Shown piece after piece: positions 2,139 to 47,830 of a DNA stretch of 64,000 bases (its first letter is position 1; every line of letters starts with the position of its first letter). The position numbers were made by a program, and so were the translations under genes. The stretch lies in NCBI GenBank assembly GCA_030744755.1, contig JASLPY010000020.1, forward strand, positions 5,209 to 69,208, written 5' to 3'. The notes under the pieces are model-generated. The model saw only the letters and a list, made by a program, of their open reading frames with translations. It was not told the DNA's origin and searched no databases. The DNA is from Kiritimatiellia bacterium (GTDB taxonomy: Bacteria > Verrucomicrobiota > Kiritimatiellia > UBA8416 > JADHWI01).

Positions 2139-5100
2139 ATGACCGAGTGGCAAAGCAAAAGCCTTTCGATTTCCAGCATACGCAATTTCCGCCATGGTTT
2201 GGGTGGTACGTTAGTCCGGCTTGTCATAGCCGGACTTTTTCTTGCCTCCGCCTCCGCCGGATGGGCATCCATTCTTCCATTCACTGATGACTTTCAGAGT
2301 TATACCCAAGGGACCGATCTCGACGGTAGCAACGGGTGGGCAGTGGCCGGCAGTGGTTCGGTCACCGTGACCAACCATCTGTCCAGTAAGCGCGCCGCTC
2401 TGATCCCCAATAGCAGTACGAACGTCATCCTGGAGAACGACTTCACCGACGACTCGAACGTGGTATCGATCGCTTTCGACCTTCAGCCCGTTTATACCGA
2501 CGGTGATCCCTCGGATCTCATTCCCGACGATGCAACCTTCGTATACTACATCGGCACTAACGGGATGGTAACAGCGTATGACGGCCAGGATGCCTCGAAC
2601 CTCACCCATGACATAATATCGGACCAGTCTCCCACGAACTTCGTCGTCACCCTCGATTACGCGACCTCGAACTGGTCGCTTTATGTGGGAGGTGCTGAGA
2701 TCGTGTCCGATTTCGGTTTCTATTCCAGCAGTAACTCCGACTTCAACCAGATTTCATTCCTGGAGTCATCGTCGACGTCTTACCTGGACAATGTGGACAT
2801 CAAGGCTCCGCCGCTGGTTTACTTCGATCTGGCATCAGGCGAGTATGCAGAGGGCTTGAGCGTGACAGTGACTGCACGGCTTTCAACCGCCTATAGCACC
2901 GCCGTCACCGTAAACCATGCGCTCACCGGTGGTGGAAGTGGAGAACCCGCCGACATTACCGGTTATAGTAGCGGCACACTTACTTTCGATATAGGCGAAA
3001 CGGAGACCAACTTCACGTTTACTGTCACTGACGACATTTTTTGGGAGGAAGCCGAGACCCTCGTGTTCCAGTTGAGCGACGTGACGAACGGTATACTGGG
3101 TTCGCCATCGACCTTTACGCTGACTATCCCTGATGACGCCGGGGACTGGAGCCTTCCGTTCAGCGACGACTTCGAGCCTCCGCGAACCACCGGAAATCTG
3201 GACGCTCAGAACGGGTGGCAGGCCACCGATGCGGAAGTGCAGACCACCACATTTATCGATACGCAGGCCGCGAGCATCACGTCCTCGACCGGCATCGCAA
3301 GCCACCCGTTTGCCGCCGGTAATTCCAACGTCTGGACCGACCTGTACATCCAGCCGGTGTTTGGCGACAACTCGTCCACCAACCCGCCGGACGACAGTTC
3401 GTTTGCTTTCTTCGTGAATAACAGCTCCAACGTCGTGGTTTACAATGGTAACGCCACCCAGGCCCTGACCGGTGTCACTATCACACAAGGCAAGTGGGTG
3501 CGCTTCACGGTGTTCAGTGATTACGCAAACAGCAACTGGGACCTGTACGTAGACGGCGTACCGGTAACGAACGACGTGGATTTCTACACCAACACCGCTC
3601 CGACCAGTTATACTGAGTTCGGCGTACGTGGTGGCGGCGGGTCGAGTGCGCCGTTCGATGATGTGTACATCTCCACGAATCCGCCAGACCCGTTTGTGAC
3701 GTTCACCGTGGCCTCCAATTCCTATGACGAAGGCAGCACGGCCACTGGCTACGTGTCGCTGTCGTGGGCTTCCGCGAGCAATGTGACCGTGGACGTGACG
3801 GATCTCCTGACTGGGACGGCGACGAACGGCGGGGCGGGCCAGGACTACACCTTCAGCAGTCCCAGCAACCTGACGATCATCGCCGGAACAACGAACCTGC
3901 CGTTCACGTTCGTGATCGAACAGGACAATGACGGTGAACCTGCAGAAACAATCGAGTTCGCGCTTGCGAACTACGGCGGTGGTTCGGCCGGTGATATCAC
4001 AAACTTCACGGCGTATATCAACATCGACCCGTCCGACGTGCCTGATATCAGCTTCCAGACGAATGCGGTGTCTATCCCCGAAAGCACGGGTGTCGTAACG
4101 GTGACGGTAACAGTCAGCGTGCCCTACAACATTGATACCGTGAAAGTAGATTATGCGGTCAGCGGTACCGCAACTCTGAACGACGATTTCACGAATTACT
4201 CTGACGGGACGCTGATCCTGGATCCCGGCGACACCTCGACTAACTTCACCTTCGAGGTCATCAACGATCTCGAGGACGAACTGGACGAAACCGTGATCTT
4301 CGGCCTGTCGAACTTCATCAACTGTTCGGACGGCACGCACACGCAGATTACTTACACGATTCTCGAGGACGTTGGCGACGAGAAGCCCAATGTGTACTTT
4401 GCATCCTCCGGGGCGACCGTATCCGAAGGCGTCGGCACGGTGACTCAAAAGGTGTACCTGTCCAAGACGTACAACGGGACGGTGACCATCGAGGTTGAGG
4501 ACACCCTGTCCGGCACGGCCACAAATGGCGGCTTGGATTACGCCATGGGAATAACAAACCTGTCGTTCTCGCCCGGCAGCACCAGTGAAGAGTACACCGT
4601 TGCGATCAACGACGACACCATTGGTGAAGACGATGACACGATCATCCTCCAGTTGAGTAATGTCAGTGGCGCCACGATCATTGCACCGTTGACCCATACC
4701 ATCACTATTTCAGATGATGTCGCCGACTGGGGGCTGCCGTTCTATGAAACCTTCGAGTCGAGAAATGAAGCCGACCTGGACGGCCAGCACGGATGGGATG
4801 CGCTCGACGCCACGGTGCAGAGCAACAACACGTACGGCGGCAGCACCTATGCCGGCAGCATCAACTCCGAGACCGGCTTTGCTCTTCACCCGTTCTCCGA
4901 CGGCAAGTCCAACGTCTGGACGGATATCTACATCCAGCCGGTGTTTGCTGATGACAGCAGCGCCAGCGTGACCGATGTGCCTGCGGACAGCACCTTCGCG
5001 TTTTACGTGAACACCAACGGTGACGTCGTGGTTTATGACGGCAATGTCAGAAAGACGAATGACACGAACCTGACCGAGGGAGAATGGGTCCGGTTTACCG

Positions 5101-6578
5101 TGAACAGTGATTACGCGGCCACGAACTGGTCCCTTTACACTAACGGTTCCCCTGTTGCGATAGAGAGTGGATTGTCCTTCTACACGAATACTACAACATC
5201 CTATACCGAGTTTGGTATCAGGGGCGCGGGCTCATCCAATGCGCCTGTGGACGATGTGAGCATAACTCTCACCAGTCCGCTTGCCGGCCTGCCCATTGCG
5301 AGTTTCCTTGCGGCTACGGGGTCCGGGGCCGAAAGCGTTCTCAGTGTTACCGGTACGGTTGTCCTGAGCAAGAGCTATGCGAGTACCGTCACGGTGGACC
5401 ACGTGCTTCTCGACGATGGCGCTGCCGAAGCGGGCCAGGATTACAACTACACGCCCGGAACAGTAACATTCGATCCGGGTGAACAGACAAACACCTTCAC
5501 ATTCACAATTATCAACGATATCGTCGTTGATGGGCCGGACACACTTACCTTCTCGTTGAGCGGTTACAGCAATGCCGAAGCCGGGACAAGCACCAACTTT
5601 GCCTACACCATCCTGGCGGACATTGACGACGTTCCCCCTGACATCTCGTTTGTCACAAACGTCTACTCCGCCGGCGAAGACGTGCTTTCCGGAACGGGTA
5701 CTGTATATCTGAGCAAGACCTACAGCGGCACGGTGACGGTGAATCATGCCGTAATAGCACTCGGCACGACGGCCGACATCGGTGATGACTACACGTACTC
5801 GGCAGACACGCTGACGTTCAATCCGTACGTGACCAACGCCAGCTTCACATTTACCATTGTCGACGACACGTACGACGAGTCGGACGAGACGATCAAGTTC
5901 GGCCTCAGCGGTCAGAATGTGGGCTCCCTGGCGCCGTATTCAGAGTTCACCTACACCATCCTTGAAGACACGAACGACTGGTTCGCGCTGCCCTTTGTGG
6001 AGACGTTCGAAGACCGGACCCTGAGCGGGTTAAGCGGTCAGCACGGGTGGTATGCCGTGGATACCGACGTGACCAATGCTCCGGCCGCTTACATACATAC
6101 AGATTCGCAGGCAGGCCTCATCATGGCCGATGCCGGTTTGATCCGCCACACCTTCAACGACGGCCAGTCCAACGTGTGGACGGATCTCTACATCCAGCCC
6201 GTGTTCGGGGCCGACGACGACAGCGTGACCAATCCGCCTGCCAACAGCAGTTTTGCGTTTTACGTCTACACCAACGGGCAAGTGGTGGCTTTCGACGGAC
6301 GGAATTCACCGACACAGCTGGTGCACACCGCTCTGAACCCGGGCGATTGGGTTCGCTTCACGGTCTTCAGCGACTACGCTGACACCGAGTGGGATCTGTA
6401 CCTGAACGATATCCTACTGCGCGAGAACATGGATTTCGTTGATGCAACCGCTCCCGCGTCTTACACTGAGTTCGGCGTGCGCGGAGCTGGATCTTCCAAC
6501 GCTCCCATTGACGACGTGAGCATAACTCTCACTACGCCATTCCCTGTTCCAAAGGGCGCAATGTTCCTGCTCAGATAG
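2139..6578 (+). CDS. Giant secreted acidic surface protein: four lectin/LamG-like beta-sandwich repeats interleaved with about six Calx-beta domains
   Basis: SD GAGGAG at 2125-2130; signal peptide ending ASAGWA; repeats LPF.E.F...LDG..GW / VWTDLYIQPVF / WVRFTV.SDY; Calx-beta-like units (DY....GTLTF..G.T...FTF.I.DD...E.DETI.F.L); ends PKGAMFLLR. Confidence 0.8.
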   Translation: MTEWQSKSLSISSIRNFRHGLGGTLVRLVIAGLFLASASAGWASILPFTDDFQSYTQGTDLDGSNGWAVAGSGSVTVTNHLSSKRAALIPNSSTNVILENDFTDDSNVVSIAFDLQPVYTDGDPSDLIPDDATFVYYIGTNGMVTAYDGQDASNLTHDIISDQSPTNFVVTLDYATSNWSLYVGGAEIVSDFGFYSSSNSDFNQISFLESSSTSYLDNVDIKAPPLVYFDLASGEYAEGLSVTVTARLSTAYSTAVTVNHALTGGGSGEPADITGYSSGTLTFDIGETETNFTFTVTDDIFWEEAETLVFQLSDVTNGILGSPSTFTLTIPDDAGDWSLPFSDDFEPPRTTGNLDAQNGWQATDAEVQTTTFIDTQAASITSSTGIASHPFAAGNSNVWTDLYIQPVFGDNSSTNPPDDSSFAFFVNNSSNVVVYNGNATQALTGVTITQGKWVRFTVFSDYANSNWDLYVDGVPVTNDVDFYTNTAPTSYTEFGVRGGGGSSAPFDDVYISTNPPDPFVTFTVASNSYDEGSTATGYVSLSWASASNVTVDVTDLLTGTATNGGAGQDYTFSSPSNLTIIAGTTNLPFTFVIEQDNDGEPAETIEFALANYGGGSAGDITNFTAYINIDPSDVPDISFQTNAVSIPESTGVVTVTVTVSVPYNIDTVKVDYAVSGTATLNDDFTNYSDGTLILDPGDTSTNFTFEVINDLEDELDETVIFGLSNFINCSDGTHTQITYTILEDVGDEKPNVYFASSGATVSEGVGTVTQKVYLSKTYNGTVTIEVEDTLSGTATNGGLDYAMGITNLSFSPGSTSEEYTVAINDDTIGEDDDTIILQLSNVSGATIIAPLTHTITISDDVADWGLPFYETFESRNEADLDGQHGWDALDATVQSNNTYGGSTYAGSINSETGFALHPFSDGKSNVWTDIYIQPVFADDSSASVTDVPADSTFAFYVNTNGDVVVYDGNVRKTNDTNLTEGEWVRFTVNSDYAATNWSLYTNGSPVAIESGLSFYTNTTTSYTEFGIRGAGSSNAPVDDVSITLTSPLAGLPIASFLAATGSGAESVLSVTGTVVLSKSYASTVTVDHVLLDDGAAEAGQDYNYTPGTVTFDPGEQTNTFTFTIINDIVVDGPDTLTFSLSGYSNAEAGTSTNFAYTILADIDDVPPDISFVTNVYSAGEDVLSGTGTVYLSKTYSGTVTVNHAVIALGTTADIGDDYTYSADTLTFNPYVTNASFTFTIVDDTYDESDETIKFGLSGQNVGSLAPYSEFTYTILEDTNDWFALPFVETFEDRTLSGLSGQHGWYAVDTDVTNAPAAYIHTDSQAGLIMADAGLIRHTFNDGQSNVWTDLYIQPVFGADDDSVTNPPANSSFAFYVYTNGQVVAFDGRNSPTQLVHTALNPGDWVRFTVFSDYADTEWDLYLNDILLRENMDFVDATAPASYTEFGVRGAGSSNAPIDDVSITLTTPFPVPKGAMFLLR

Positions 6579-6736
6579 AGGACGGTGCACAGAGCTTAAT
6601 AGACTATTGACGAGACAAACAGGAGTGCTTGAGAGTTCTATGAAGGCGGTCTGGAGTGAGGGGAAGCAGGTCCGACTTGAAATGGGACCATGGTCCCATG
6701 CAATTGGGATCTATAAAGCAGGATGGGGTCGACAAG

Positions 6737-9700
6737 ATGAATTCGACGGGGCGCCACGCACAGCGTGGAAGGTATATATGCATACGTAGGCTTGGTGCGG
6801 TACTGACCGCGGGGCTTTTGTTGACCTGTACAGGAGTTGTCGAGGGCGCATCCACGGTGCCCTTTTCGGACTCCTTCGACTATCCCAACGGGACCGACCT
6901 GGACGGCACGAACGGATGGGGTGTAACCGGCAGCGGCTCGGCCATTGCCACCAACAGCCGGGCACGGCTTGGCGACGTGACTGTGTCCAACGTTTTCACG
7001 GGCGAGGAAGAGGTCGTTACGATTACGTTTGACGTCCAGCCACGGTTTAACGAAGGCAATCCCTCCTCACTCATTCCCGCTGATGCAACATACGCATTCT
7101 ACGTCGATACCAACGGATTGATTACGGCGTTCGACGGCCAGGCCGCATCGAACCTGACGCATGATCCTCTGAGTGAGAGCAGCAGCACTCAAATCACCGT
7201 GCGGGTGGACTACCCGGCTGAGACATGGTCGTTGTGGTTGGGCGACACGAAAGTGGCCACCGACTTTGCTTTCTACGGGGCGGCCACATCGGCTTTCACT
7301 GAAGTGGGTTTCATCGAAGGTTCTACCAACATGTACTCCTATGTCGACAACGTGGAGATCCTGGAAGTGCACCCCCGGCCCAGCGCTGCATACGCGACAG
7401 CTTCGCTGACGGTTGCCGAGACCCAGGGCACGGTCACGGCCACGGTTATCCTCAGCGAGGCGCACGACGAAGAAGTCCGGGTGGATCATTATCTCGCCGG
7501 CGGGACCGCCTTATTCGGCCAGGATTTCACCAACTATACGGACGGTACATTGATCTTCGCGGTAGACGACACGAACAAGACATTCACATTCGATATTCTC
7601 AACGATACGAGTAACGAACCGCCAGAAACCATCATCTTCGGCCTCACCGGCTACAGCAACTCCACACCCGCTGAGCCGTCAAGCTTTGCAGTTACCATCG
7701 GGGACGACGGTTCCGACTGGAGTCTCCCGTTCTATGAGCCGTTCGAGGACCGAACCCTCGGTGACCTCGACGGTCAGAACGGCTGGCGTGGCGATGATGC
7801 AGTCGCACAGAGCAACGTGGTCAGAGCCGGGAATCAGGCAGGCAGCCTCAATTCCGCGACAGGTATGATTAGTCACCCGTTCGGTGACAGTCAGACAAAC
7901 GTCTGGACCGACCTGTACATCCAGCCGGTGTTCGCTTCCGACGACGAGAACGTGACCAATCCGCCTTCCGACAGCAGCTTTGCGTTCTATGTATCAACCA
8001 ACGGACAGGTGGTGGCTTTCGACGGTACGACGCCTACACAGCTCGTGCATTACGCGCTGACCGAGGAGGAATGGGTACGGTTTACCGTACGCAGCGATTA
8101 CGTATCCACCAACTGGTCCCTGTATGTAAATGGCTTCATGGTTGCTGAGGACCTTGGCTTCTATGATACTGCTGCGACAAGCTACACTGAGTTCGGAGTG
8201 CGCGGAGCGGGCACCACCAATGCCTATATCGACGATGTCCGAATCCAGGAAGCGAGGCCCATTACAATCGGCGTATCATTCGTGACGACCGAGGCAGAGG
8301 GCGAGGAATCCGTGGGCGTCGTGACGGCGACAGTTGCCCTGAGCGAGGCCGTCACCAACGAAGTCAGTGTAGACCATTTCCACATCGGCGGCACGGCTGA
8401 CTTCGGTGCGGACTTCACGAACTACACGCCGGGGACCCTGACTTTCTCCCCGGGCCAGCTCTCCACTTCCTTCACGTTCACGGTTATAGACGACTTCGAC
8501 CCCGATCCTGATGAGACGATCACTTTCGGGTTGCACAACTTCGTTGATATAGAGGCAGGAGAGTTCACAAACTTCACCTACACCATCCTGTACGAACCGG
8601 CCGACGAGCCGCCGCCGGTTTCGTTCGAACCGGCCGAGGCCGAGGCCGAGGAGTCCGTGGCTGTCGTGACGGCGACCGTTGTCCTGGGCGCTCCCAGCGG
8701 GAAAGAAGTCAACGTAGACCACTTCCTCATCGGCGGCACGGCAGATTTTGGTGCGGACTTTACCAACTACACTCCGGGGACACTGACATTCTCCCCAGGC
8801 CAGGTCTCCACGTCCTTCACCTTCACGGTCATAAACGACACGGAGAACGAACCGGACGAGACGATCGTTATCGGGCTGAGTAACTATGTCAATGGGGTAG
8901 CAGGGGTGGAGACGAACTTTACCTACACGATCCTGTACGAACTGGCGGACGAGCCACCGGTGGTTTCGTTCCAGACCAGTGGTGTTCGCGTCGATGCGGA
9001 TGTGCCTGCTGCTTCGATTCCAGTTGTTCTGTTTCCTGCGCAGTCAACCACAGTTACAGTGGCTCACGCCATCCTACCTGCCAGCACGGCGACCGACGGC
9101 CTGGATTACACCAATTACACTCCCGGCACGCTCACCTTCGACCCGGGAGAGACGAATCAGTTCATCACCTTCACGGTCATTGATAATGGGGAAGACGTGG
9201 ATGAGGAGATTGTCATAGGGCTGAGCAACTTCACCAACGCGTCTGCTGGTCTGTACACCGAATTCACCTATACCATAGCAGGCGACTCGAACCTATGGTA
9301 CAGCTTGCCGTTTGCCGAAACGTTTGAACTGGGGGCGCCGGTCGAGCTGGATGGTCACCGCGGCTGGGTATCCGGGAATGCCACGGTGCAGACTGATGTG
9401 GTTTACTCGGGAAGCAAGGCAGCGGAAGTAAACAGCGGCCTCAGCCACACCTTCTTCGGCGGTCAAACCGACGTTTGGACCGACATGCGTGTCCGCCCGT
9501 TACTCGGTACGCCTCCGTCGGTCCCTGGGAACAGTACCTTCGCATTTTATGTAAACACGAACGGGCACGTTTGGGCCTATGACGGCGACACAGCAAGGGA
9601 TCTCACGCCTCCGGTGCCCGCCATCAGCGAGGGGCAATGGAAGCGGTTCACCGTGCACAGCGATTATGTCGACAAGACGTGGGATCTGTACGTTAATGGA

Positions 9701-9880
9701 ATGCTCATGGCTGAAGACCTCGCGTTCTACAGCGACAGCGTAACGAATTACAGCGAGTTTGGCTTGCGTTCCTTTCGCACCACCAACGCGCCGTACAGTG
9801 CCCATTTAGACGACGTCAGCATCGGTCTCACCAGGCCGTCGGGGGTGTTCGATATCGGTACGCTACTGCTCATCAGGTAG
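6737..9880 (+). CDS. Paralogous secreted Calx-beta/beta-sandwich surface protein (three sandwich repeats, about four Calx-beta units)
   Basis: Start moved to ATG 6737, which gives a signal peptide (RRLGAVLTAGLLLTCTGVVEGA); same repeat units as 2139..6578; ends GTLLLIR. Confidence 0.8.
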   Translation: MNSTGRHAQRGRYICIRRLGAVLTAGLLLTCTGVVEGASTVPFSDSFDYPNGTDLDGTNGWGVTGSGSAIATNSRARLGDVTVSNVFTGEEEVVTITFDVQPRFNEGNPSSLIPADATYAFYVDTNGLITAFDGQAASNLTHDPLSESSSTQITVRVDYPAETWSLWLGDTKVATDFAFYGAATSAFTEVGFIEGSTNMYSYVDNVEILEVHPRPSAAYATASLTVAETQGTVTATVILSEAHDEEVRVDHYLAGGTALFGQDFTNYTDGTLIFAVDDTNKTFTFDILNDTSNEPPETIIFGLTGYSNSTPAEPSSFAVTIGDDGSDWSLPFYEPFEDRTLGDLDGQNGWRGDDAVAQSNVVRAGNQAGSLNSATGMISHPFGDSQTNVWTDLYIQPVFASDDENVTNPPSDSSFAFYVSTNGQVVAFDGTTPTQLVHYALTEEEWVRFTVRSDYVSTNWSLYVNGFMVAEDLGFYDTAATSYTEFGVRGAGTTNAYIDDVRIQEARPITIGVSFVTTEAEGEESVGVVTATVALSEAVTNEVSVDHFHIGGTADFGADFTNYTPGTLTFSPGQLSTSFTFTVIDDFDPDPDETITFGLHNFVDIEAGEFTNFTYTILYEPADEPPPVSFEPAEAEAEESVAVVTATVVLGAPSGKEVNVDHFLIGGTADFGADFTNYTPGTLTFSPGQVSTSFTFTVINDTENEPDETIVIGLSNYVNGVAGVETNFTYTILYELADEPPVVSFQTSGVRVDADVPAASIPVVLFPAQSTTVTVAHAILPASTATDGLDYTNYTPGTLTFDPGETNQFITFTVIDNGEDVDEEIVIGLSNFTNASAGLYTEFTYTIAGDSNLWYSLPFAETFELGAPVELDGHRGWVSGNATVQTDVVYSGSKAAEVNSGLSHTFFGGQTDVWTDMRVRPLLGTPPSVPGNSTFAFYVNTNGHVWAYDGDTARDLTPPVPAISEGQWKRFTVHSDYVDKTWDLYVNGMLMAEDLAFYSDSVTNYSEFGLRSFRTTNAPYSAHLDDVSIGLTRPSGVFDIGTLLLIR

Positions 9881-10346: not shown

Positions 10347-12308
10347 ATGAATTCACGTACACTCAGAAAGAACTACCTGCTCGCCCTTTCCGCGGTAGTC
10401 TATCTCGTGACGCTGCTGTTGCTGCTTAGCGAGCTGGACCGGCAGTACTACCAGGTGGAGAAAGAATCCACCATCAAGTACAATTTCCGTACGCTGTTTC
10501 CGCACGACACAAGGCCCCTGCAGGATGTCACCCGGAGGATCCTGGCTCGACACGATGCGGAGGAAACCGTAGACCGCCAATTGGAGAAGGAATGGCGGCA
10601 GATCGCGCAGGGTCTGCTGTCCGGAGAGGGTTGCGTGTTCCGAATTCGGATCGTGCCGAAGGACGAGGCCCAGCTGCTGGTTCAGGTGGATAACGAGAAG
10701 TTTGATCGATTGAACGGATTTGGGAATACTCTCTTCTACAGGAACTTCCAAAACGTGGTCTCTTACGAGATTGCCGGTGCGGCCGAGAAACCCTGGACCG
10801 GTTTGCTCTCCTTCCACTACACCACTCCGGGAAGCTACCAGCCGATTGTCGCGCTGACAAACCGCTACCGACTCTGGGCCCTGCTGATGTTCGCGCTTGT
10901 GACGGCCGGGTATGCCGTTGTGCTCCGCAAGCTGATCTTTCCGATAAAGCGCGTGGTGAGCCGCATCGATGCCGTGTCATCGTCAGCGCCCCAGCTCATG
11001 CCGAAACCATCCTCTGTACTTGAGAAGGCTTACAACGATCTCGCGCGCGACGCCATCCTCCTGCGGCTTGGGCAGTCGATTCGCAACATCGCGGCCGGGG
11101 ACCCGGCGATCGATCGATCGCAATTGCTTGCGCGTGCTCCGCGCGTGCTGGTGCAACTACTGGATTACCGCGCGGCGCTGGTATACGACGTCTCGCCGGA
11201 CGAATCGGGTCAATTGTCGGTTTCCGGTTGCGTCGGCGCTGACGATGGGAGAAGCTCGCGTGACTATGAAGCATACTGCATGCAACATGTTTTCATTCCC
11301 GGAAAGATCGATGGGCTCGCGGGTGTGAGGCGGGAGTTGCTCGCAGACTGTGCCGTATGCGACATCACCCAGCCGGAGGATCGCCCGCATCTTACCTTCC
11401 TGGTGCTGTTCCTCCCCGCCAAATTGAGCTCGTTCGATGCGGAGCTCCGTGAATGGCACCTGGAAACGGTCGAGCGGGTGGCCGAACAGCTACGTGACAC
11501 CGTCGCGGTATTCGACATGCAGTGGCGACATGTCCGCAATGAGCGCAGCCGTGCAAACATCAACCTGGCACGAAACCTGGGACACGATCTCACCAACATC
11601 ATCGCGACATCCAAACTGGATATCCTGACGGCCACGAAGATTCTGGACGCCGGAGAGATCGATGGCTCCGATGCTGCCGTCCGGCGGCAGTTGCTCAGTG
11701 AATCGGTACAGGGACTTCTCAATAATGCGCGGCTTCTGCAGGAGGTCGTCAATATCTACCGTTCATTCAGCTACATCAACCGTCCGCGTTTTGAGACAGT
11801 GTCGATCAACAGGGCTCTTGACGAGATAATCGAAGTGTTCTCGTTCTCGCTGCCGGGGAAAACCATTGTGCGCAAGCACTACGACCAAGACCTGCCGGAA
11901 TCCACGGTGGAGCCGCGTTTACTGAAGCTGGCCGTGTTCAATATACTGAGCAACGCGGTCGATGCTATAAAGTTGAGCGGAGCGGGGGACGGAGAGATCA
12001 CTGTCTTCACCAGCATGGTTAGCGGCAGCGACGATGTGTGTATCTCGATTCGGGACAACGGCATGGGCATACCCAACCCGGACGGGCAATTGGCGAGCCA
12101 GGCGGAGATCGACAAGATATTCCGCTATGGTGTCTCGACGAAAACAGAAGAGGGTGGCGAAGGCCTTGGACTTAGCTGGGTATGGACGATCGTTGAGGAG
12201 TTTCATGGCGGAAAGGTGCAGGCACGGAATCATCCGGATGGTGGCGCAGAGTTCTCGCTGCTGATCCCAATACGCGACAATGACAACGGAGTAATGTATG
12301 ACGACTGA
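10347..12308 (+). CDS. Membrane sensor histidine kinase (2 TM, periplasmic domain, HAMP-like, GAF-like, HisKA, HATPase)
   Basis: H-box NLGHDLTNII, N-box NILSNAVDAI, G1 IRDNGMGI, F/G2 IFRYGVSTK..GEGLGL; SD AGGAGG. Confidence 0.92.
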   Translation: MNSRTLRKNYLLALSAVVYLVTLLLLLSELDRQYYQVEKESTIKYNFRTLFPHDTRPLQDVTRRILARHDAEETVDRQLEKEWRQIAQGLLSGEGCVFRIRIVPKDEAQLLVQVDNEKFDRLNGFGNTLFYRNFQNVVSYEIAGAAEKPWTGLLSFHYTTPGSYQPIVALTNRYRLWALLMFALVTAGYAVVLRKLIFPIKRVVSRIDAVSSSAPQLMPKPSSVLEKAYNDLARDAILLRLGQSIRNIAAGDPAIDRSQLLARAPRVLVQLLDYRAALVYDVSPDESGQLSVSGCVGADDGRSSRDYEAYCMQHVFIPGKIDGLAGVRRELLADCAVCDITQPEDRPHLTFLVLFLPAKLSSFDAELREWHLETVERVAEQLRDTVAVFDMQWRHVRNERSRANINLARNLGHDLTNIIATSKLDILTATKILDAGEIDGSDAAVRRQLLSESVQGLLNNARLLQEVVNIYRSFSYINRPRFETVSINRALDEIIEVFSFSLPGKTIVRKHYDQDLPESTVEPRLLKLAVFNILSNAVDAIKLSGAGDGEITVFTSMVSGSDDVCISIRDNGMGIPNPDGQLASQAEIDKIFRYGVSTKTEEGGEGLGLSWVWTIVEEFHGGKVQARNHPDGGAEFSLLIPIRDNDNGVMYDD

Positions 12309-13584
12309 TCAACCGATCAAAATCCTGATTGTTGATGATAATGCGCAATACCGCGAAGCATTTAAGCGGACCTTGCTGCTTGAAGACTACGAGGTATGTG
12401 AGGCAGCGGATGCTGACGAGGCCATAGCGGTCATAGAGTCACAATCCCCCGACGTGGTAGTGACGGACCTCCAGATGCGCACGGATCGCGAAGGGCTTGA
12501 GCTGATCGAAACGATAAAGGCCTCCGATCCCTTCCTACCGGTGATCATGATATCTGCCGTCGGATCCTTTGAAGAGGGTGCCCTGGCCACGAAAATGGGT
12601 GCCGTCCATGTTATCCACAAGAGCCGCATAGAAGACGAAATGGAGAGCTTCTTTGATACTATCCGCCAGTCGCACGAGTCCTGCCGCAAGAGCCGCAGCC
12701 AGCTCGCGATGATTGCGAGGGCAAGGCAGCAAAGGGACCTGAAAGAGGACGACGACCGGGTTGAGGCCGTCAGGGCACTGCTCGATGATCCGGATGCCGA
12801 TCCGCACGTCCAGGGCGAGGCGTACGACTTCATCACTTCCATCAGCGAGGTGGAAATGCTTCGCAGATCCGAACTGGACATGCAGCATGCATCAGAATCC
12901 GATCGCGACCAGGAAACGTATGCGGCTGCCCTGGCGGAACTCAAGGACAATCTGGCAGGCTATGACGGGTTGGGAGACGACTCCAGGCAAGCTCTTGCGA
13001 CCGCAGAGTATCTTTACGAATTGCAGGAGAATCGTGAACTGCTCGATTTCTCCAGGACCGTCGCCTTCTCCTACTGTTTTGCGGTGGAGTGCGAGGTGCG
13101 GATCCGGCTCAAGGGGAAGATCACCCGGTTGGCCTCGAATCGTATTAACCAACGCATATTCGAGGCCTGTATGGACAAGAAGACCCGGCGCGTGGATATG
13201 GGCTTTCAGCAGAACCTTATGCTGGCGGCGCGAAACAGAGGGGTACATTTCACTATCGACAACGTGAAGGCGGTTCTAATGAGCCTCATGGGGGGGAAAG
13301 GCAGGTTCCGGGCCAACGGGCTCAAGGATATAGGGATTCTCCTGTTGTGCTTTGCAAGAGAGTATTCGTTCAGCAAGTGGGGACAGACGATTAAGGTCAA
13401 GAATCCTCTGAATGTGAAGGGCCTGCAATATGAGGAGGAGGTCCTCGCCCTTGCTGGTTCGCTCATTGATCTCCAATATGCCCGCAATCCCTATATCCAT
13501 CCCGATGTCAAAAAGAAGGAACAGCTCGCGAAGCTGCGCCAAACCGCCTTTGACTGTCTGCGCGAACTGGGGAAAGTAGTCTAA
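12298..13584 (+). CDS. Response regulator: REC domain plus C-terminal HEPN-like domain
   Basis: REC motifs ILIVDD, VVTDLQM (phospho-Asp), VIMISA, HKS; C-terminal AVECEVR (ExxxR) and RNPYIH (Rx4H); start overlaps the end of the kinase gene. Confidence 0.85.
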   Translation: MTTDQPIKILIVDDNAQYREAFKRTLLLEDYEVCEAADADEAIAVIESQSPDVVVTDLQMRTDREGLELIETIKASDPFLPVIMISAVGSFEEGALATKMGAVHVIHKSRIEDEMESFFDTIRQSHESCRKSRSQLAMIARARQQRDLKEDDDRVEAVRALLDDPDADPHVQGEAYDFITSISEVEMLRRSELDMQHASESDRDQETYAAALAELKDNLAGYDGLGDDSRQALATAEYLYELQENRELLDFSRTVAFSYCFAVECEVRIRLKGKITRLASNRINQRIFEACMDKKTRRVDMGFQQNLMLAARNRGVHFTIDNVKAVLMSLMGGKGRFRANGLKDIGILLLCFAREYSFSKWGQTIKVKNPLNVKGLQYEEEVLALAGSLIDLQYARNPYIHPDVKKKEQLAKLRQTAFDCLRELGKVV

Positions 13585-13637
13585 AGATATCCCGGTATCA
13601 TCCGTCAAATGCATGTTGCCCGAAAGGCGGCCTGGAT

Positions 13638-14100
13638 TAGCCGGAATTGAACAAGCAGCATGCGATCAAGGGATTAGAATTGGAGAACGTAACCACCCGC
13701 GCTCCCGCGCTAGAGGGCCCGAGGACACGGAGGTTAGATGGGAGGAGGGGATTTGGGCTCCGGGGAAGTTGTATGAATCTGGCGGAATGACCCCCTCTAC
13801 CCCTCATTCCTTTTCCCAGATTCATGCAACGTTTGCCATGGAGAGGAAGAAGAGAAAGAATGTAGGCTTCTCATTACCGCCTTCGTTCTGACCTGTCTCC
13901 TCCGTCCCCACAATCTCTCTCAAGAGGCAAACGTGGCATGAATTTGATGATGGTTTCGCCTCTATTCTGAAAAATGCCTGGCGACATGAAAGTCACAACG
14001 AAACCATCGTCACATTCATGCCGCTCCCGGAAGCAGCGTCTCCTCCTCCCATCTAACCTCCGTGTCCTCCGGGCCCTCTAGCGCGGGAGCGCGGGTGGTT
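13638..14100. repeat. Structured repeat element, copy A (57-bp inverted repeats enclosing three hairpins, plus a 53-bp flank)
   Basis: IR 13691-13747 / 14043-14100; inner hairpins 13768-13830, 13831-13932 and 13935-14022; homologous to 32140-32613. Confidence 0.9.
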
Positions 14101-14139
14101 CAATCTCTCCTCAACGAAGTGTGGCGAGCGTCTCAGCAG

Positions 14140-14224
14140 TTATGTTAAGTAGTTCTTCGCCCGATTTCCTCATCCGCAGAGACTTACGGAACCCACTCAA
14201 GATAATCCCGTACTCCACATAACA
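14140..14224. other. XerD-arm-like (TTATGTTAAGT, 14140-14150) and XerC-arm-like (ACTCCACATAA, 14212-14222) half-sites
   Basis: First arm matches the E. coli dif XerD arm TTATGTTAAAT at 10/11; 14204-14224 is repeated exactly in reverse at 47445-47465. Confidence 0.5.
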
Positions 14225-14272
14225 TCGCAGAATGCTCATATGTTTGCTATGATTTCGCCTTCACCATACCAA

Positions 14273-14281
14273 TGATAGAAT
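14273..14281 (+). promoter_or_regulatory. Putative extended -10 promoter (TGaTAGAAT) for the GH38 gene
   Basis: TGnTAnnnT match 40 nt upstream of ATG 14321. Confidence 0.35.
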
Positions 14282-14320
14282 ACTCGATAACTCTGATATT
14301 GCTTACCAGGGAGCGTTATT

Positions 14321-17300
14321 ATGCCGCGGTTTACAGACTACACTGACAACCAGTTGGGTCGTGTTCAGGATGCCATTTTCGAGCATGTGTATACTAAGGT
14401 TGGAGATCTTGAGATCACTGCCTACTGTAGCCCCGAACCGCTTCCGTTTCCACAGCGTCGACGCGGCAAGAAACGTATTCTGCGCGTTGGGGACACATGG
14501 GGAAAGCTGTTTGAATGCGCGTGGTTTCACTTCCGGGGCACTGTACCGAAGTCAGCCTCCGGCAAAAAAGTGGTTCTCCTCATTGATGTGAATGGCGAGC
14601 TGTGCGTGTTCGACAGTAAAGGGGTTCCCGCCCGTGGACTGACCTGTGGCTCGTCTGTCTTTGCCGATAGCATGCATACGATAGGTAAGCGAGTTCTCCC
14701 GTTTGCGAAGAAAGCCAAAGGGGGGGCACGGATTGATCTCTGGGCTGATGCCGGATGCAATGGGCTGTTTGGCAATCTGCGCAACGAGGGCAAAATCGAT
14801 ATTGCGGCAATCGCCATTTGCAACGACGACATGCGCGACCTGGCCTATGATTTCCGGGTACTTCTCGATTTCTGGAAAGCGGCTCCCCGTGAGACCGGGC
14901 GAAGCAGACAGATGCGAAACGCTCTGCAGCGTGTAGCCGCGACGATGGTGGAATTCTCGCCCGAGGAAGTGAGGCGCTCCCGGCAGATTCTTGCCCCGAC
15001 CCTTTCCAAGAAAGGTGGCGATGCCGCGCTACATGTCAGCGCGATCGGACACGCCCACCTGGATCTTGCCTGGCTTTGGCCGGAGCGCGAGACCTGGCGC
15101 AAGGGCGCACGTACCTTTGCCACGGTCCTTGAGTTGATGGAGCGGTATCCGGATTATCAATTCGGCGCCAGCCAGCCACAACTGTTCCTGTGGATGAAGA
15201 ATCTCTATCCGGCGCTCTATCGAAAAATCAAAAGGAAGGTGAAAGAAGGACGTATCGAGCCCCAGGGAGCGATGTGGGTAGAGTCCGATACCAATATTCC
15301 TTGCGGGGAATCGCTGGTCCGTCAGCTGCTATATGGCAAACGGTTCTACGAGCGTGAGTTTGGTGTCGAAATGGACTATCTATGGCTTCCCGACGTGTTC
15401 GGGTATTCCGCCGCGCTGCCGCAGATTCTGCGACTCGCCGACGTGAAGTACTTTATGACGCAGAAACTGTCCTGGAGCACAATCAACAGATTCCCGCATC
15501 ACTCATTCCGTTGGCAAGGGATTGATGGAACACAAGTGCTGACCCACATGCTTCCCGAGGACACTTACAACAGTTCGGCATTACCTCGATCCCTCGCAAA
15601 AATCGATAAGGAGTACTTGGACGGCGATGTGTCCGACGAGGCTCTGATGCTGTTCGGGATTGGCGACGGGGGGGGCGGTCCCGGGGCCGAACACCTTGAG
15701 TCTCTCAAGCGAATCCAAAACCTGGCGGGACTGCCACCGGTTCGGCAAGAGCCTGTCGCCAGCTTCTTTCCACGTTGGGCAAAGGATGCAGAGGCTTTTG
15801 CCACGTGGGTGGGAGAGCTGTATCTGGAGCGCCACCAGGGCACCTTTACGACGCATGGGCGGATCAAATGGTACAACCGCCGGATTGAGCAAGCGCTGCG
15901 CGAACTCGAGTGGACGGCGGCTTGTGCGCGCATTGTGGCGGGTAAAGCCTATCCACGCAGACAACTGCTTTCCATTTGGCAAAGAATACTGTGCTTCCAG
16001 TTCCATGACATTCTTCCCGGCTCTTCGATCAAACGGGTCTATGACGAATGCAAAACAGATTACAGCAAGATGCTGGCGGATATCGGGCAGCGCCTCGAGC
16101 AGTGCAGGGCTGCCATTGCGCGACGGCTCGATACGCAGAACTGCGCGAAGCCCTGGCTTGTCAGTAATTCGCTGAGCTGGTCGCGAACCGAGTGGCTCAA
16201 ACTGGGGCGCCGCTGGACACAGGTGACAACGCCGGCGATGAGTTTCTCCGTTGTCGATGCGCAGGCAACGCGCCCGGAGATTCCAGGCCTGAAGGCAACC
16301 CCGCGACTGCTTGAGAATGATCGTCTTCGCGTTCGTTTTCATCAAAGCGGCGCGATCAACAGCATCTATGACAAAGTAGCCCGCCGCGAGGTCTTGGCCA
16401 AGGGCGCGCTGGCCAACCGTTTGACTGTCTACCAGGACAAGGGCAACGCCTGGGACTTTCCCATGGACTATGCGGACAAGAACGTCCGGACCATGCATCT
16501 GGTCTCTAGCGAAGCCAAGGTCGATGGTCCACGGGCCGCAGTACGCCAGCGCTACACTCTCGGCCATTCCGTGGTCGATCAGGAGATTCTCCTGATGGCC
16601 GGCAGCCCCCTTCTTGAGTTTGCCACTCGCGCAACCTGGCGCGACACGGAAACCATGCTGCGCACATCGTTCCCTGTCGATATCCTGGCCGATCGAGCAT
16701 CCTATGAGATCCAGTTCGGCTCACTGGAGCGTCCGACCCACCGGAATACGAGTTGGGACCTGGCACGGGATGAGGTGCCGGCGCAGAAATGGGTGGACCT
16801 GTCACAACGGGACTACGGCGTTGCACTGGTCAATGACTCGAAATATGGCCACAAAGTGAAGGACAATATACTGGACCTGAACCTGCTGCGCAGCGTACCG
16901 CACACGGGTGCACGTGTCTTTGATGACAGCAACCTGAAGCCTGGTGAGCCCAACTACCGCTATACCGACCAGGAGGATCACGAGTTTCGGTACGGTCTCT
17001 ATCCTCACCAGGGGGACTATGTCTCGGGTGGCGTGGTTCGGATCGCTTGCGAGTTCAACATTCCGTTACATACCATGCCGGTCGCCGGCCATCGGGGCGA
17101 CAGCCAATCGCTGTCTATGCTTCATGTCGATTCGGCGGAAATCGTTGTGGAGGCTGTGAAAATGGCGGAGGACCGGGATTCCATGATTGTACGACTGTAT
17201 GAGAGTTCAGGATCTGCGGTCGACGCAACCCTGTCGTTCGGGAAGCCCGTTAACCAGGTTCACGAAGTAGGGATTATGGAGAACGCTATCGGTAACCTGA

Positions 17301-31481: not shown

Positions 31482-32084
31482 GTGATGCAAGGAACTGGTT
31501 ACATAACAATATGTCTCTTTCTGGCTCTTACGTCCGTAGTAGCCCACGGTTATGAAGAACACGTTGTAGTGAAGAGGCGTCGGCGTCTCGACAACACGAC
31601 ATACGAAGTTATGACACGGTCAGACCTGCGCAAACTGGAATACAACAACCGCCGGGAGAAGATTATCCAAGTCAAAGCCCTGGCAAAGGCAGAAAAGGCC
31701 TGGAAAGAAGATCCCTCGAACAAGGGAAAGAGCTTCCCGCGATCGGTTGTCACTTCACCCGATGTGCGCGCCATGAAAGGGTACCGTGATCTGGCGGACG
31801 CTACTGAGGAGGCCAACCGCTACACGCAGCAGGAAAAGAAGCGGCTTGCCAAACAGAAAAAGGACCTCAAGGAGAAATACGCCGTTTATCAGACAGCACG
31901 TAACAGCAGAGACCGGGGCAGAAGGCAGGAAAAGCGGTACGACATGGAGCGCTACAACGCGGCCCTGAAACGCGATGAAGAGCGTGAGGCGCTGCTTCAG
32001 AAAGCGGCGGATCTCTACGAGTCCGTCCTTGAAGAAGTGCGGGCTGAGTACACAACACGCCGTTCGAAGGTCCGCTCAGAATAG
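31482..32084 (+). CDS. Hypothetical secreted basic helical protein
   Basis: Signal-like N-terminus followed by K/R/E-rich helices; SD GAGG. Confidence 0.55.
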   Translation: MMQGTGYITICLFLALTSVVAHGYEEHVVVKRRRRLDNTTYEVMTRSDLRKLEYNNRREKIIQVKALAKAEKAWKEDPSNKGKSFPRSVVTSPDVRAMKGYRDLADATEEANRYTQQEKKRLAKQKKDLKEKYAVYQTARNSRDRGRRQEKRYDMERYNAALKRDEEREALLQKAADLYESVLEEVRAEYTTRRSKVRSE

Positions 32085-32139
32085 GAGAAATGTTGCCAGA
32101 TTGACCCCGCGAACAATGGCAGTTTAGATATGGAGATTC

Positions 32140-32613
32140 AACCACCCGCGCCCCCGCGCTAGAGCTCCCGAGGACACAGAGGTTCGATGGGGAGGAGTGG
32201 GACTTGGGCTCTGGAGAAGTTGCATGAATCTGGCGGAATGCTCCCCTGACCCCCGGCATTCCTTAATCCAGATTCATGCAACGTTTGCCATTTGAGAGAG
32301 ATGAGAAGTCACTCCCGTTGGCACCAACTTGGACGTTGGTTGTTGGGCGTTGGACGTTGGACGTTGATCACCTCCTCCCTCTCCTGAGGCAAACGCGCGC
32401 TGAATTCGATGATCGTTTCGTAGACGTTGTGCGAAATGCTGCAAACGTATTGTCCCAGTAAAACGATCGTTGAATTCAGCGCGCTCTCCATAAGCTGAGT
32501 CTCCTCCTGTCTTCTAACCTCCGTGTCCTCGGGAGCTCCAGCGCGGGAGCGCGGGTGGTTACGTTCTCTAGTTCTAATCCTCAATTCGCATGCTGCTAGT
32601 TCAATTCCGGCTA
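32140..32613. repeat. Structured repeat element, copy B
   Basis: IR 32140-32197 / 32501-32560; hairpins 32219-32282, 32283-32394 and 32395-32484; 53-bp flank 32561-32613 is the reverse complement of 13638-13690 with a few mismatches. Confidence 0.9.
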
Positions 32614-32691
32614 CTTTCTGCCATCACCACTCGCAATTATGTTGAGTAACTCCCTGGCGTCACACCTCATTCAGTGGAACGTGCATAATCT

Positions 32692-32719
32692 ACTTCACAT
32701 AACAGGGGTTATGTTGAGC
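32692..32719 (+). other. dif/pdif-like XerCD recombination site
   Basis: ACTTCACATAA-CAGGGG-TTATGTTGAGC, 11-6-11 architecture; extra half-sites at 32637-32647 and 32718-32728. Confidence 0.6.
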
Positions 32720-32789
32720 TCCACATAAACGCAGTCGTTTGTATCAACTGCCATAGCGTCTCCATCCCGTTCCGTTTTCGTCATCGTGC

Positions 32790-47385: not shown

Positions 47386-47444
47386 ACAGCAGTAATATGA
47401 ACGATCAGCGTTGAAACGTGAAGCAGAATCAAAGCGTTTCGCGC

Positions 47445-47545
47445 TGTTATGTGGAGTACGGGATTGTGTTGAGAGAGGTGAGAAGTCACTCTCGACTTGG
47501 ATGTTGGTTGTTTGGCGTTGGGCGTTGGGCGTTGATCTCCTCCCA
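47445..47545. repeat. Partial copy of the repeat family: XerC-arm-like 21-mer plus the hairpin-2 loop sequence with GGCGTTG heptamers
   Basis: 47445-47465 is the reverse complement of 14204-14224; 47471-47544 (gagagaggtgagaagtcactc..cttggatgttggttgtttggcgttgggcgttgggcgttgatc) matches 32294-32379. Confidence 0.75.
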
Positions 47546-47830
47546 CTAGTCAATCTATGTGTCGTAATAACTCCTTACGAGTGTCGCAAGAACTCTCTTG
47601 GCGCAGGTGTTGGGGAAGGCTATTATGTCGCGATTCGAGAACTCAGGTCCAACCAGTGAGACGCAGGCCCTGGCGCCGGTGGTTTTCGACAAGCGATTCA
47701 TCGGGAAGGTCCTGCCGATCATCGGAGAGATGATCGCAAACAATGAGCGCGCGGTGGCCCTGTCTCAGTATGCGCATGCCGGGCCGCACTGTAGATGGTC
47801 TGGTCTTGAAACAGAAGAAAGGTCTGTGAC

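What the first reader, a model, noticed from the sequence alone, without database searches (positions are those of the whole stretch)
13691..14100. Undescribed ~415-bp four-way-junction element with clear covariation between two copies
Seen: copies A (13691-14100) and B (32140-32560) each have a long closing stem and three almost contiguous hairpins (H1 GTTGYATGAATCTGG/CCAGATTCATGCAAC, H2 GTTTGCC/GGCAAAC, H3). The stems keep pairing while changing sequence: closing stem GAGGGCCC/GGGCCCTC vs GAGCTCCC/GGGAGCTC; H1 inner GGAATGA/TCATTCC vs GGAATGC/GCATTCC; H3 GGCATGAAT/ATTCATGCC vs GCGCTGAAT/ATTCAGCGC, and ATGGTTT/AAACCAT vs ATCGTTT/AAACGAT. The H2 and H3 loops are unrelated between copies, and there is no credible ORF. 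Inference: selection acts on a large folded RNA or ssDNA structure with exchangeable loops, either a novel structured ncRNA or a non-autonomous mobile element.
Basis: partly seen in the sequence, partly recalled or inferred. Interest (0 to 1): 0.82.

Follow-up and report, generated by a model that had tools for sequence, protein, structure and literature searches.

The report
Gene-less palindromic repeat of nuclease cassettes
The two folded 415-bp copies are real members of a roughly 40-copy intergenic palindromic repeat in a marine Kiritimatiellae genome, most likely a gene-less offshoot of small inverted-repeat cassettes that carry a nuclease gene of unknown function.

Summary
A (13691-14100) and B (32140-32560) fold as a long closing stem plus three hairpins (DNA-fold z -19.6 and -14.2). 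They belong to a family with 22 full copies and 28 ends cut off at contig ends in the window's own 6.28-Mb draft. On 23 copies, 97.2% of stem cells pair and 18 of 90 pairs carry double changes (0 of 500 shuffles reach this).

The ncRNA reading gets no support. The two strands fold equally well, G-T and A-C mismatches are about equal (32 vs 26), Rfam gives nothing, and all 22 copies are intergenic in either orientation and every gene context.

The mobile-element reading fits better. A sister-genus genome holds a 918-bp element with the same 33-43-nt ends and a GxxExxY (PDDEXK_3, PD-(D/E)XK nuclease) gene where the H2 loop sits. In another family the gene starts just after the H2 5' arm. 36 of 38 GxxExxY genes sampled across the order lie between inverted repeats at E<=0.05; 33 of 38 do at E<=5e-4, against 0 of 200 random sites.

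I read A and B as MITE-like, gene-less derivatives of these cassettes. No empty site, target duplication or transcript was seen, so mobility and the acting enzyme are inferred.

The parts
13638..13690 (.). Flank module X (53 nt here, up to 142 nt elsewhere), always found attached to a core end
   Evidence: Inverted match to 32561-32613 (I1). A BLAST of the flank modules finds X only next to core ends. The A and C11 loci share it at 95.6%.
13691..14100 (+). Copy A, core element (410 bp): closing stem plus H1, H2 and H3
13691..13751 (+). Left arm of the closing stem (terminal inverted repeat) of A
   Evidence: I3, I7; fold
13768..13830 (+). H1 hairpin of A (GTTGTATGAATCTGG ... CCAGATTCATGCAAC, with inner stem GGAATGA/TCATTCC)
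13831..13932 (+). H2 of A: stem GTTTGCC/GGCAAAC, purine-rich 5' arm, pyrimidine-rich 3' arm and a variable loop. This is the position of the GxxExxY gene in gene-bearing relatives.
13933..14024 (+). H3 hairpin of A
14040..14100 (+). Right arm of the closing stem of A; it ends in AGCGCGGGAGCGCGGGTGGTT, the motif conserved across the order
14101..14223 (.). Flank module Y (123 nt)
   Evidence: A contig from run X3 follows the window only as far as 14223 (record 21).
32076..32139 (.). Flank module Z (64 nt here, 166 nt elsewhere)
32140..32560 (+). Copy B, core element (421 bp)
32292..32375 (+). H2 loop of B, filled by a separate and very abundant heptad repeat (GTTGGRC run)
   Evidence: D8
32561..32702 (.). 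Flank module X1 (142 nt)

Best explanation
A and B belong to an interspersed, non-coding palindromic repeat family of a marine Kiritimatiellae bacterium. The core is 370-468 bp, and there are at least about 36 copies.

I read the family as gene-less, MITE-like derivatives of small cassettes bounded by terminal inverted repeats. The full form of these cassettes carries one gene for a GxxExxY protein (Pfam PDDEXK_3, NCBIfam TIGR04256), a 120-aa PD-(D/E)XK nuclease of unknown role. In the derivative the gene has been lost from the H2 loop. What remains is the cassette's ends (the closing stem), the hairpins on either side of the gene (H1, H3), and the purine-rich leader with its pyrimidine-rich partner (the H2 arms).

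Shown:
- family membership and copy number
- the fold and the maintained pairing
- intergenic location in any orientation
- shared ends and a shared leader with gene-bearing elements
- the general bracketing of GxxExxY genes by inverted repeats

Inferred:
- The copies spread as DNA.
- The cassette's own nuclease, or some other enzyme acting in trans, recognises the conserved ends.
- Stem complementarity is kept either because a hairpin or cruciform DNA (or a transcript stem on either strand) is needed, or by arm-to-arm correction in the palindrome.
- The core can flip between its arms.
For: Family size. There are 74 matches to the 21-nt end motif (up to 3 mismatches) in the own genome. They form 20 left-right pairs 370-468 bp apart. 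Two more full copies have one diverged end (found with the looser scans). There is one 28-nt mini-remnant. Of the 30 unpaired ends that remain, 28 lie at contig ends. Contig depth over the element is about 36 times that of the flanks in run X1, 420.9 against 11.6; this is no copy number, as the tool warns.

Flanks are unrelated, or fall into modules X, Y and Z that occur only beside cores. All 22 full copies lie between long ORFs, in tandem, convergent and divergent contexts and in both orientations.

Pairing is maintained with no strand bias.

Gene-bearing relatives:
- G002:C2 (same family, other genus) holds a 918-bp element whose ends match A and B over 33-43 nt at 86-94%. Between them lies a PDDEXK_3/TIGR04256 gene (148.7 and 149 bits).
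- In G028:C175 the 40 nt that run up to the gene's start match the H1 3' arm plus H2 5' arm of A at 85% (E 5e-6).
- In the own genome, one of the two GxxExxY genes ends 26 nt from a core end.

GxxExxY genes are bracketed by inverted repeats in 36 of 38 cases at E<=0.05 and 33 of 38 at E<=5e-4, against 11 and 0 of 200 random sites. One further locus was dropped because its flank was too short. The gene occurs in 47 of 61 genomes of the order, and one genome has 52 matches, many of them fragments.

The end motif recurs in other families of the order with different interiors.
Against: - No empty site, target-site duplication or excision product was seen. Contigs of 4 runs from 4 studies all enter the left end of A, and none bridges the site.
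- Between A or B and the G002:C2 element, BLAST finds only the ends. The interior likeness is by eye.
- The own genome has only 2 GxxExxY genes against about 36 or more cores. The one beside a core lies outside it, on a 572-nt contig.
- Several DDE, rve and Y1 transposase genes exist in the genome. None was found next to a core end, but many sit on tiny contigs whose surroundings are unknown.
- In other families only the right-end motif is conserved, without a complementary left arm. That points to recognition of a sequence on one strand, which my model does not explain.
- A role for the PD-(D/E)XK protein in moving DNA is untested anywhere. The survey PMC3424549 lists the family's function as unknown (passage read).
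Confidence: 0.6

Rival explanations
1. A MITE of an ordinary transposon. The cores would be mobilised by a DDE or other transposase encoded elsewhere, and GxxExxY genes would be passengers that merely like the same carriers.
For: Long terminal inverted repeats, many copies and no coding capacity. The genome holds 11 DDE_Tnp_1, 16 rve and 8 Y1_Tnp matches, mostly on small contigs.
Against: None of the contigs carrying those matches is among the contigs holding a 21-nt core-end match. One of them, C45, shows only a short 59-nt hit to A or B. The RAYT-like Y1 gene at C498:75034 is flanked by its own, different repeat family. No target duplication is visible. Inverted repeats around GxxExxY genes differ in sequence from cassette to cassette, even within one genome. 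That fits a cassette-specific partner better than one host transposase.
Confidence: 0.2
2. Host-used intergenic palindromes, like REP/BIME or ERIC. In this reading the copies persist because their stems work in transcripts or DNA, for example as RNase III substrates, mRNA stabilisers, insulators or protein-binding sites. This is not exclusive of a mobile origin.
For: Stems are far more conserved than loops. All 22 copies are intergenic and often fill the gap between genes. The stems are equally good on both strands, so they would form whichever strand is transcribed. A full copy is 79% identical across genera.
Against: No expression data: no RNA run was listed. There is no terminator-like tail and no promoter signal above chance. 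Copy number differs greatly between related genomes, about 36 or more against 1-2.
Confidence: 0.12
3. A family of structured non-coding RNAs with its own function, transcribed from one strand.
For: A large, stable multi-branch fold with compensatory changes.
Against: No strand bias in energy (11 of 22) or in G-T against A-C mismatches (32 vs 26). Stems are near-perfect Watson-Crick over about 150 pairs, which is unlike known large RNAs. Orientation is unrelated to genes. There are no Rfam hits except two plant miRNA-precursor models far below their gathering scores. Optional hairpin modules appear in either arm.
Confidence: 0.05
4. Invertible DNA switches (invertons). A recombinase would flip the core between its inverted repeats to switch neighbouring genes.
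For: Relative to the flank modules, the core is reversed in A compared with its 95%-identical sister at C11 and with C266 and C344. It is also reversed in one X2-flanked copy, C388. That is 2 reversed among 14 orientable composite copies.
Against: Copies also sit between convergent genes. There is no promoter signal and no recombinase gene near A or B. The flips are known only from a short-read assembly and could not be checked, because contigs break inside the arms. Simple recombination between 60-nt arms would do the same.
Confidence: 0.03

Closest known systems
Bacterial MITEs and palindromic intergenic repeats (Correia/NEMIS of Neisseria, ERIC/IRU, RUP, BOX); names recalled, not taken from a call
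   Same: Short, non-coding, many dispersed intergenic copies. They have terminal inverted repeats, fold into a long hairpin and are modular.
   Different: This element is larger and more branched, with a roughly 60-pair closing stem plus three inner palindromes. No target duplication is visible. The candidate full-length form carries a small PD-(D/E)XK nuclease gene, not a known transposase.
REP/REPIN elements with RAYT (Y1) transposases
   Same: Palindromic intergenic repeats that are thought to move as folded single strands. The genome does hold a RAYT-like gene.
   Different: That gene is flanked by a different repeat family. Our cores are about 4 times longer than a REPIN, and no Y1 gene lies beside them.
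Intervening sequences of 23S rRNA that carry a small ORF between inverted repeats and are cut out by RNase III (recalled knowledge, not tested here)
   Same: A small ORF of unknown role sits between inverted repeats that form a long stem. Gene-less versions exist.
   Different: Our copies are intergenic, not in rRNA. The ORF family is GxxExxY/PDDEXK_3. Processing by RNase III is untested.
Invertons (invertible promoters)
   Same: A segment of a few hundred bp lies between inverted repeats, and two copies appear flipped.
   Different: There is no promoter and no recombinase nearby. Copies occur between convergent genes, and the interior is itself made of palindromes.

Membership tests
MITE (miniature inverted-repeat transposable element) | Terminal inverted repeats | tested here: met
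   Arms of 48-61 nt at 82-100% complementarity in A and B. Helices 1-3 are 94.6-97.2% paired over 23 copies.
MITE (miniature inverted-repeat transposable element) | Small, non-coding, many dispersed copies | tested here: met
   22 full copies of 370-468 bp plus 28 contig-end ends. There is no conserved ORF: the 92-aa and 91-aa ORFs that overlap A and B are not shared.
MITE (miniature inverted-repeat transposable element) | Target-site duplication | tested here: inconclusive
   No direct repeat is seen at the AACC/GGTT ends. The true ends are blurred, because weakly conserved inverted sequence (GGAGA-NNNN) runs on outside them.
MITE (miniature inverted-repeat transposable element) | A related autonomous element with the same ends | tested here: inconclusive
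   The 918-bp element in G002:C2 has the same 33-43-nt ends and carries a GxxExxY gene. Whether that gene moves the element is unknown.
MITE (miniature inverted-repeat transposable element) | Presence/absence polymorphism (empty sites) | tested here: inconclusive
   Contigs of 4 runs enter the left end of A and none skips it. Contigs break in the repeat, so they cannot show rare forms.
Rfam RNA families | Score at or above a family's gathering threshold | tested here: not met
   0 matches in the 64-kb window. At E<=1 there were only MIR842 (25 bits against 85) and MIR171_2 (16.8 against 65).
REP/REPIN with RAYT | A Y1 transposase gene flanked by the same repeat | tested here: not met
   The RAYT-like ORF (182 aa) at C498:75034-75372 is flanked by another repeat family, and none of its matches lie at core sites.
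Inverton | Both orientations present in one population | not testable with these tools
   Only Logan contigs were on hand, and they stop inside the arms. Flips are seen only between paralogous copies in the assembly.
GxxExxY (PDDEXK_3) inverted-repeat cassette (grouping proposed here, not a curated family) | Shares ends with a gene-bearing cassette | tested here: met
   A positions 1-33 and 374-410 match the ends of the G002:C2 element at 94% and 89%.
GxxExxY (PDDEXK_3) inverted-repeat cassette (grouping proposed here, not a curated family) | Interior homologous to the gene's leader and trailer | tested here: inconclusive
   A 40-nt match (85%, E 5e-6) to the leader in G028:C175. The likeness to the G002:C2 leader and trailer is by eye only.

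The most novel reading that the evidence does not exclude
GxxExxY (PDDEXK_3/TIGR04256) genes are the cargo and engine of an unrecognised class of very small selfish elements. Each is one 120-aa PD-(D/E)XK nuclease gene between inverted repeats built from two or three tandem 8-9-nt units, with flanking hairpins. The nuclease would recognise its own repeats. Gene-less derivatives such as A and B would ride on it and can bloom to dozens of copies. The double-sided stems would make insertions harmless, because they can be cut out of transcripts on either strand.
Probability: 0.3. Interest if true: 0.8.

Novelty: new variant of a known kind. Interest (0 to 1): 0.55.

Why it matters
Palindromic intergenic repeats are common, so the element itself is a modest find. 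The link is what matters. PDDEXK_3/GxxExxY is a widespread protein family in bacteria, archaea and viruses, and the one survey I could read lists its function as unknown (PMC3424549, passage).

In this order of bacteria the gene is almost always bracketed by inverted repeats made of short tandem units. It occurs in several copies and as fragments. It also shares ends and a leader with a gene-less repeat that has multiplied to dozens of copies.

Together these give a testable idea of what the protein does: it acts on its own flanking repeats. They also offer a simple system to test it. On the practical side, the family explains many of the contig breaks in this draft genome.

Tried and rejected
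- Rfam at gathering thresholds over the window and at E<=1 over A gave nothing usable.
- The sigma-70 promoter and intrinsic-terminator scans gave counts no higher than shuffles.
- RNA evidence: no RNA holder was listed among the 22 runs.
- Reads: only Logan contigs were available. Laid on 11500-17300, they stop 9-20 nt inside the left arm and start again at 14071-14171. No contig joins across A. The 'opposite strands' and 'skips' joints come from other copies (10-12 other letters). So there is no verdict on empty sites or flips.
- RAYT as the mobiliser was rejected, because that gene has its own repeats.
- DDE_Tnp_1, rve and Y1 matches: none was found beside a core end.
- Integron attC: considered and rejected. 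The right-end flanks do not follow GTTRRRY, and 400 bp is far too long (judged and recalled definitions).
- Metagenome scan for the H1/H2 junction 22-mer: 0 hits. The 32-nt end pattern gave 9 contigs. Several are minimal hairpins made of the outer stem only, and none carries a gene between ends.
- Viral contigs: 0 hits for the end motif.
- PDB by sequence for the GxxExxY protein: 0 hits.
- The far end of contig C405 matches nothing else, so the setting of that gene stays open.
- Literature: 'GxxExxY' (3 papers hold the term, 2 listed, both incidental). 'PDDEXK_3' (1, a survey). 'Kiritimatiellae + repeat + palindromic' (6 papers hold the terms, 5 listed, on CRISPR or viruses by their titles). 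'intervening sequence protein + inverted repeat + mobile' (0). 'miniature inverted-repeat transposable' with Verrucomicrobia or Planctomycetes (none on this element by title or abstract).
- Supplements of papers were not consulted.

Full report
**What is there**

Each has a closing stem of about 60 pairs made by its two ends, then three hairpins.
- H1 is GTTGYATGAATCTGG...CCAGATTCATGCAAC with an inner stem.
- H2 has the stem GTTTGCC/GGCAAAC, a purine-rich 5' arm, a pyrimidine-rich 3' arm and a variable loop.
- H3 is a roughly 25-pair stem.

Folded as DNA, A reaches -140.1 kcal/mol and B -129.8. The z-scores are -19.6 and -14.2 against 100 shuffles each, and no shuffle does as well.

**A family, not a pair**

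The window lies in a 6.28-Mb draft of 531 contigs. A 21-nt end motif with up to 3 mismatches occurs 74 times. These matches break down as follows:
- 20 left-right pairs lie 370-468 bp apart.
- Two further full copies have one diverged end.
- One pair of hits is a 28-nt mini-remnant at C355.
- Of the other 30 ends, 28 lie at contig ends. The repeat therefore breaks the assembly and the true number is at least about 36.

Contig depth over the left part of A in four public runs is about 36 times that of the flanks (420.9 against 11.6 in run X1). The tool warns that this is no copy number.

All 22 full copies lie between long ORFs. They sit in tandem, convergent and divergent settings and in both orientations. 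The genes around A and B are ordinary for the group: a two-component system, GH38 mannosidase, sulfatases, other glycoside hydrolases, and DUF1501/DUF1549/DUF1553 proteins. There is no recombinase or transposase among them.

**Anatomy from 23 aligned copies**

- The ends, the H1 stem, the H2 stem and the H3 stem are strongly conserved. The loops are not.
- The H2 loop ranges from a few dozen to about 170 nt. In B it holds an unrelated heptad repeat that occurs at more than 80 other places in the genome.
- H1 and H3 share the word CATGAAT on both arms. In one copy an H3-like hairpin sits in H1's place.
- Small optional hairpins sit at mirror positions in either arm of the closing stem.
- Outside the stated ends, weaker inverted sequence runs on as GGAGA-NNNN-AACC...GGTT-NNNN-TCTCC. 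The same extension is seen in another family of the order, so it belongs to the element.
- About half of the copies carry extra flank modules that never occur away from a core: X (53-142 nt) on one side and Y (about 104-123 nt) or Z (64-166 nt) on the other.

A and its closest sister, at contig C11, share core and flanks at 94-96%. Yet the core is reversed relative to the flanks. Among 14 composite copies that can be oriented, A and one other (C388) are reversed. This could be recombination between the arms. It rests on a short-read assembly and I could not check it.

**Covariation**

With the RNAalifold consensus (90 pairs in 7 helices), 97.2% of cells pair and 18 pairs show changes on both sides in 55 cells. 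None of 500 shuffles reaches these values, and structures slid by 1-3 columns give 1-5 such pairs.

It does not point to an RNA, for these reasons:
- The + and - strands fold equally well. The + strand is better in 11 of 22 copies, with a mean difference of -0.08 kcal/mol.
- Leaving aside one conserved T.G position, stems hold 32 G-T and 26 A-C mismatches.
- A transcript from one strand should tolerate G-U but not A-C.
- Near-perfect Watson-Crick stems on both strands fit a DNA palindrome.
- Arm-to-arm correction by template switching at quasi-palindromes is known to turn single changes into double ones without any selection. This is established knowledge, not tested here.
- Rfam has no match, and promoter and terminator scans stay at chance.

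**Relatives**

Among 40 related genomes, a full-length copy was found only in G002 (79% identity). G002 is the same family but another genus, and its record is titled a Kiritimatiellae MAG.

The last 20-32 nt of the right end (CTCGGG..CTC.AGCGCGGGRGCGCGGGTGGT) recur in other families of the order with other interiors. Examples are G028 with 15 or more sites, a single-cell genome, another MAG, and 9 metagenome contigs. These often lack a complementary left arm, and some are minimal hairpins made of the outer stem alone. That one-sided conservation is not explained by my model.

**The gene-bearing form**

G002:C2 holds a 918-bp element whose ends match A and B over 33-43 nt at 86-94%. Between them, where H2's loop would be, is a 122-aa gene. 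It scores 148.7 bits on Pfam PDDEXK_3 and 149 bits on NCBIfam TIGR04256 'GxxExxY protein'.

In G028:C175 the gene's start codon lies 16 nt after GTTTGCC. The 40 nt up to it match the H1 3' arm plus H2 5' arm of A at 85% (E 5e-6). The purine-rich H2 arm thus looks like the gene's ribosome-binding leader. In A the leader ends in GAATGTA, as it does before the ATG in G002:C2; this is by eye.

In the own genome, one of only two GxxExxY genes ends 26 nt from a core end, on a 572-nt contig.

**A general property of the gene**

I looked for an inverted repeat between the 400 nt on either side of each gene.
- In five genomes, 13 of 13 genes had one at E<=0.05, and 12 of 13 at E<=5e-4.
- In 25 further genomes, one gene each, the counts were 23 and 21 of 25. 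One locus was dropped for a short flank.
- At 200 random sites of the own genome the counts were 11 and 0.

The repeats are mostly two or three tandem units of 8-9 nt, such as ACCACGGAG-TT-CACGGAG-G-CACGGAG or CACGAAG, ACAGGAT and GCGAATT versions. They differ from cassette to cassette, even within one genome.

The gene is present in 47 of 61 genomes of the order, usually in 1-9 copies. One genome has 52 matches, many of them fragments. This is the look of a selfish cassette.

**Mechanism**

My best reading, at 0.6, is that A and B are gene-less, MITE-like derivatives of such cassettes. I think they spread as DNA, through an enzyme that recognises the conserved ends. The cassette's own PD-(D/E)XK nuclease is the candidate I favour, because the repeats vary with the cassette. 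That step is inferred, and I put it at about 0.3.

No empty site, target duplication or transcript was seen.

Rivals, with the odds I give them:
- an ordinary transposase working in trans (0.2)
- host use of the stems, which is not exclusive of a mobile origin (0.12)
- a true ncRNA (0.05)
- an invertible switch (0.03)

**What is in print**

My searches found no description of this repeat or of GxxExxY genes as inverted-repeat cassettes. The one survey that names PDDEXK_3 lists its function as unknown (PMC3424549, passage read). A preprint mentions the name only in passing (10.1101/2021.01.26.428298, passage read). Papers outside the held library could say more.

Noticed in passing
window 47465-47550 and 32292-32375: A run of heptads (GTTGGRC, 5-6 units) with purine-rich and pyrimidine-rich borders. 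It gives 115 BLAST matches at more than 80 places in the own genome. Only two of them, in B and in C344, lie inside cores. It is a separate, very abundant short repeat.
   Followed up: partly
window 14140-14236, 32637-32740, 47433-47473: The word TTATGTKGAG and its complement CTCCACATAAC recur between the elements and the next gene start. They also occur inside flank modules X1 and Y in inverted orientation (I4). This could be an operator, a promoter word, or the ends of yet another small element.
   Followed up: no
G000:C498:74734-75800 (own genome, outside the window): A RAYT-like Y1 transposase ORF (182 aa, 74.8 bits) is flanked by its own repeat family of about 65-110 nt, with 20 or more copies elsewhere in the genome. 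This is a classic REP/RAYT pair, distinct from the element studied.
   Followed up: partly
G000:C355:32666-32693 (own genome, outside the window): A 28-nt mini-palindrome made of the outermost ends of the element, still flanked by the usual GGGAAATCT / ACATTCTCC borders. It looks like an internal deletion or an excision remnant.
   Followed up: partly
window 2139-9880: Two very large ORFs (1479 and 1074 aa) built of internally repeated modules about 1.3-1.7 kb apart. The second has four Calx-beta stretches.
   Followed up: no
G006 (same order): 52 matches to PDDEXK_3 in a 2.9-Mb genome, many covering only the first or the last half of the profile. This is a bloom and decay of GxxExxY cassettes.
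   Followed up: no
L172, L174, L177 (metagenome contigs): A roughly 100-nt hairpin made only of the outer closing stem lies just after a gene end. Its right arm keeps the exact conserved motif, while its left arm has several non-complementary positions. This hints that the right-arm sequence itself, not only the pairing, is constrained.
   Followed up: no
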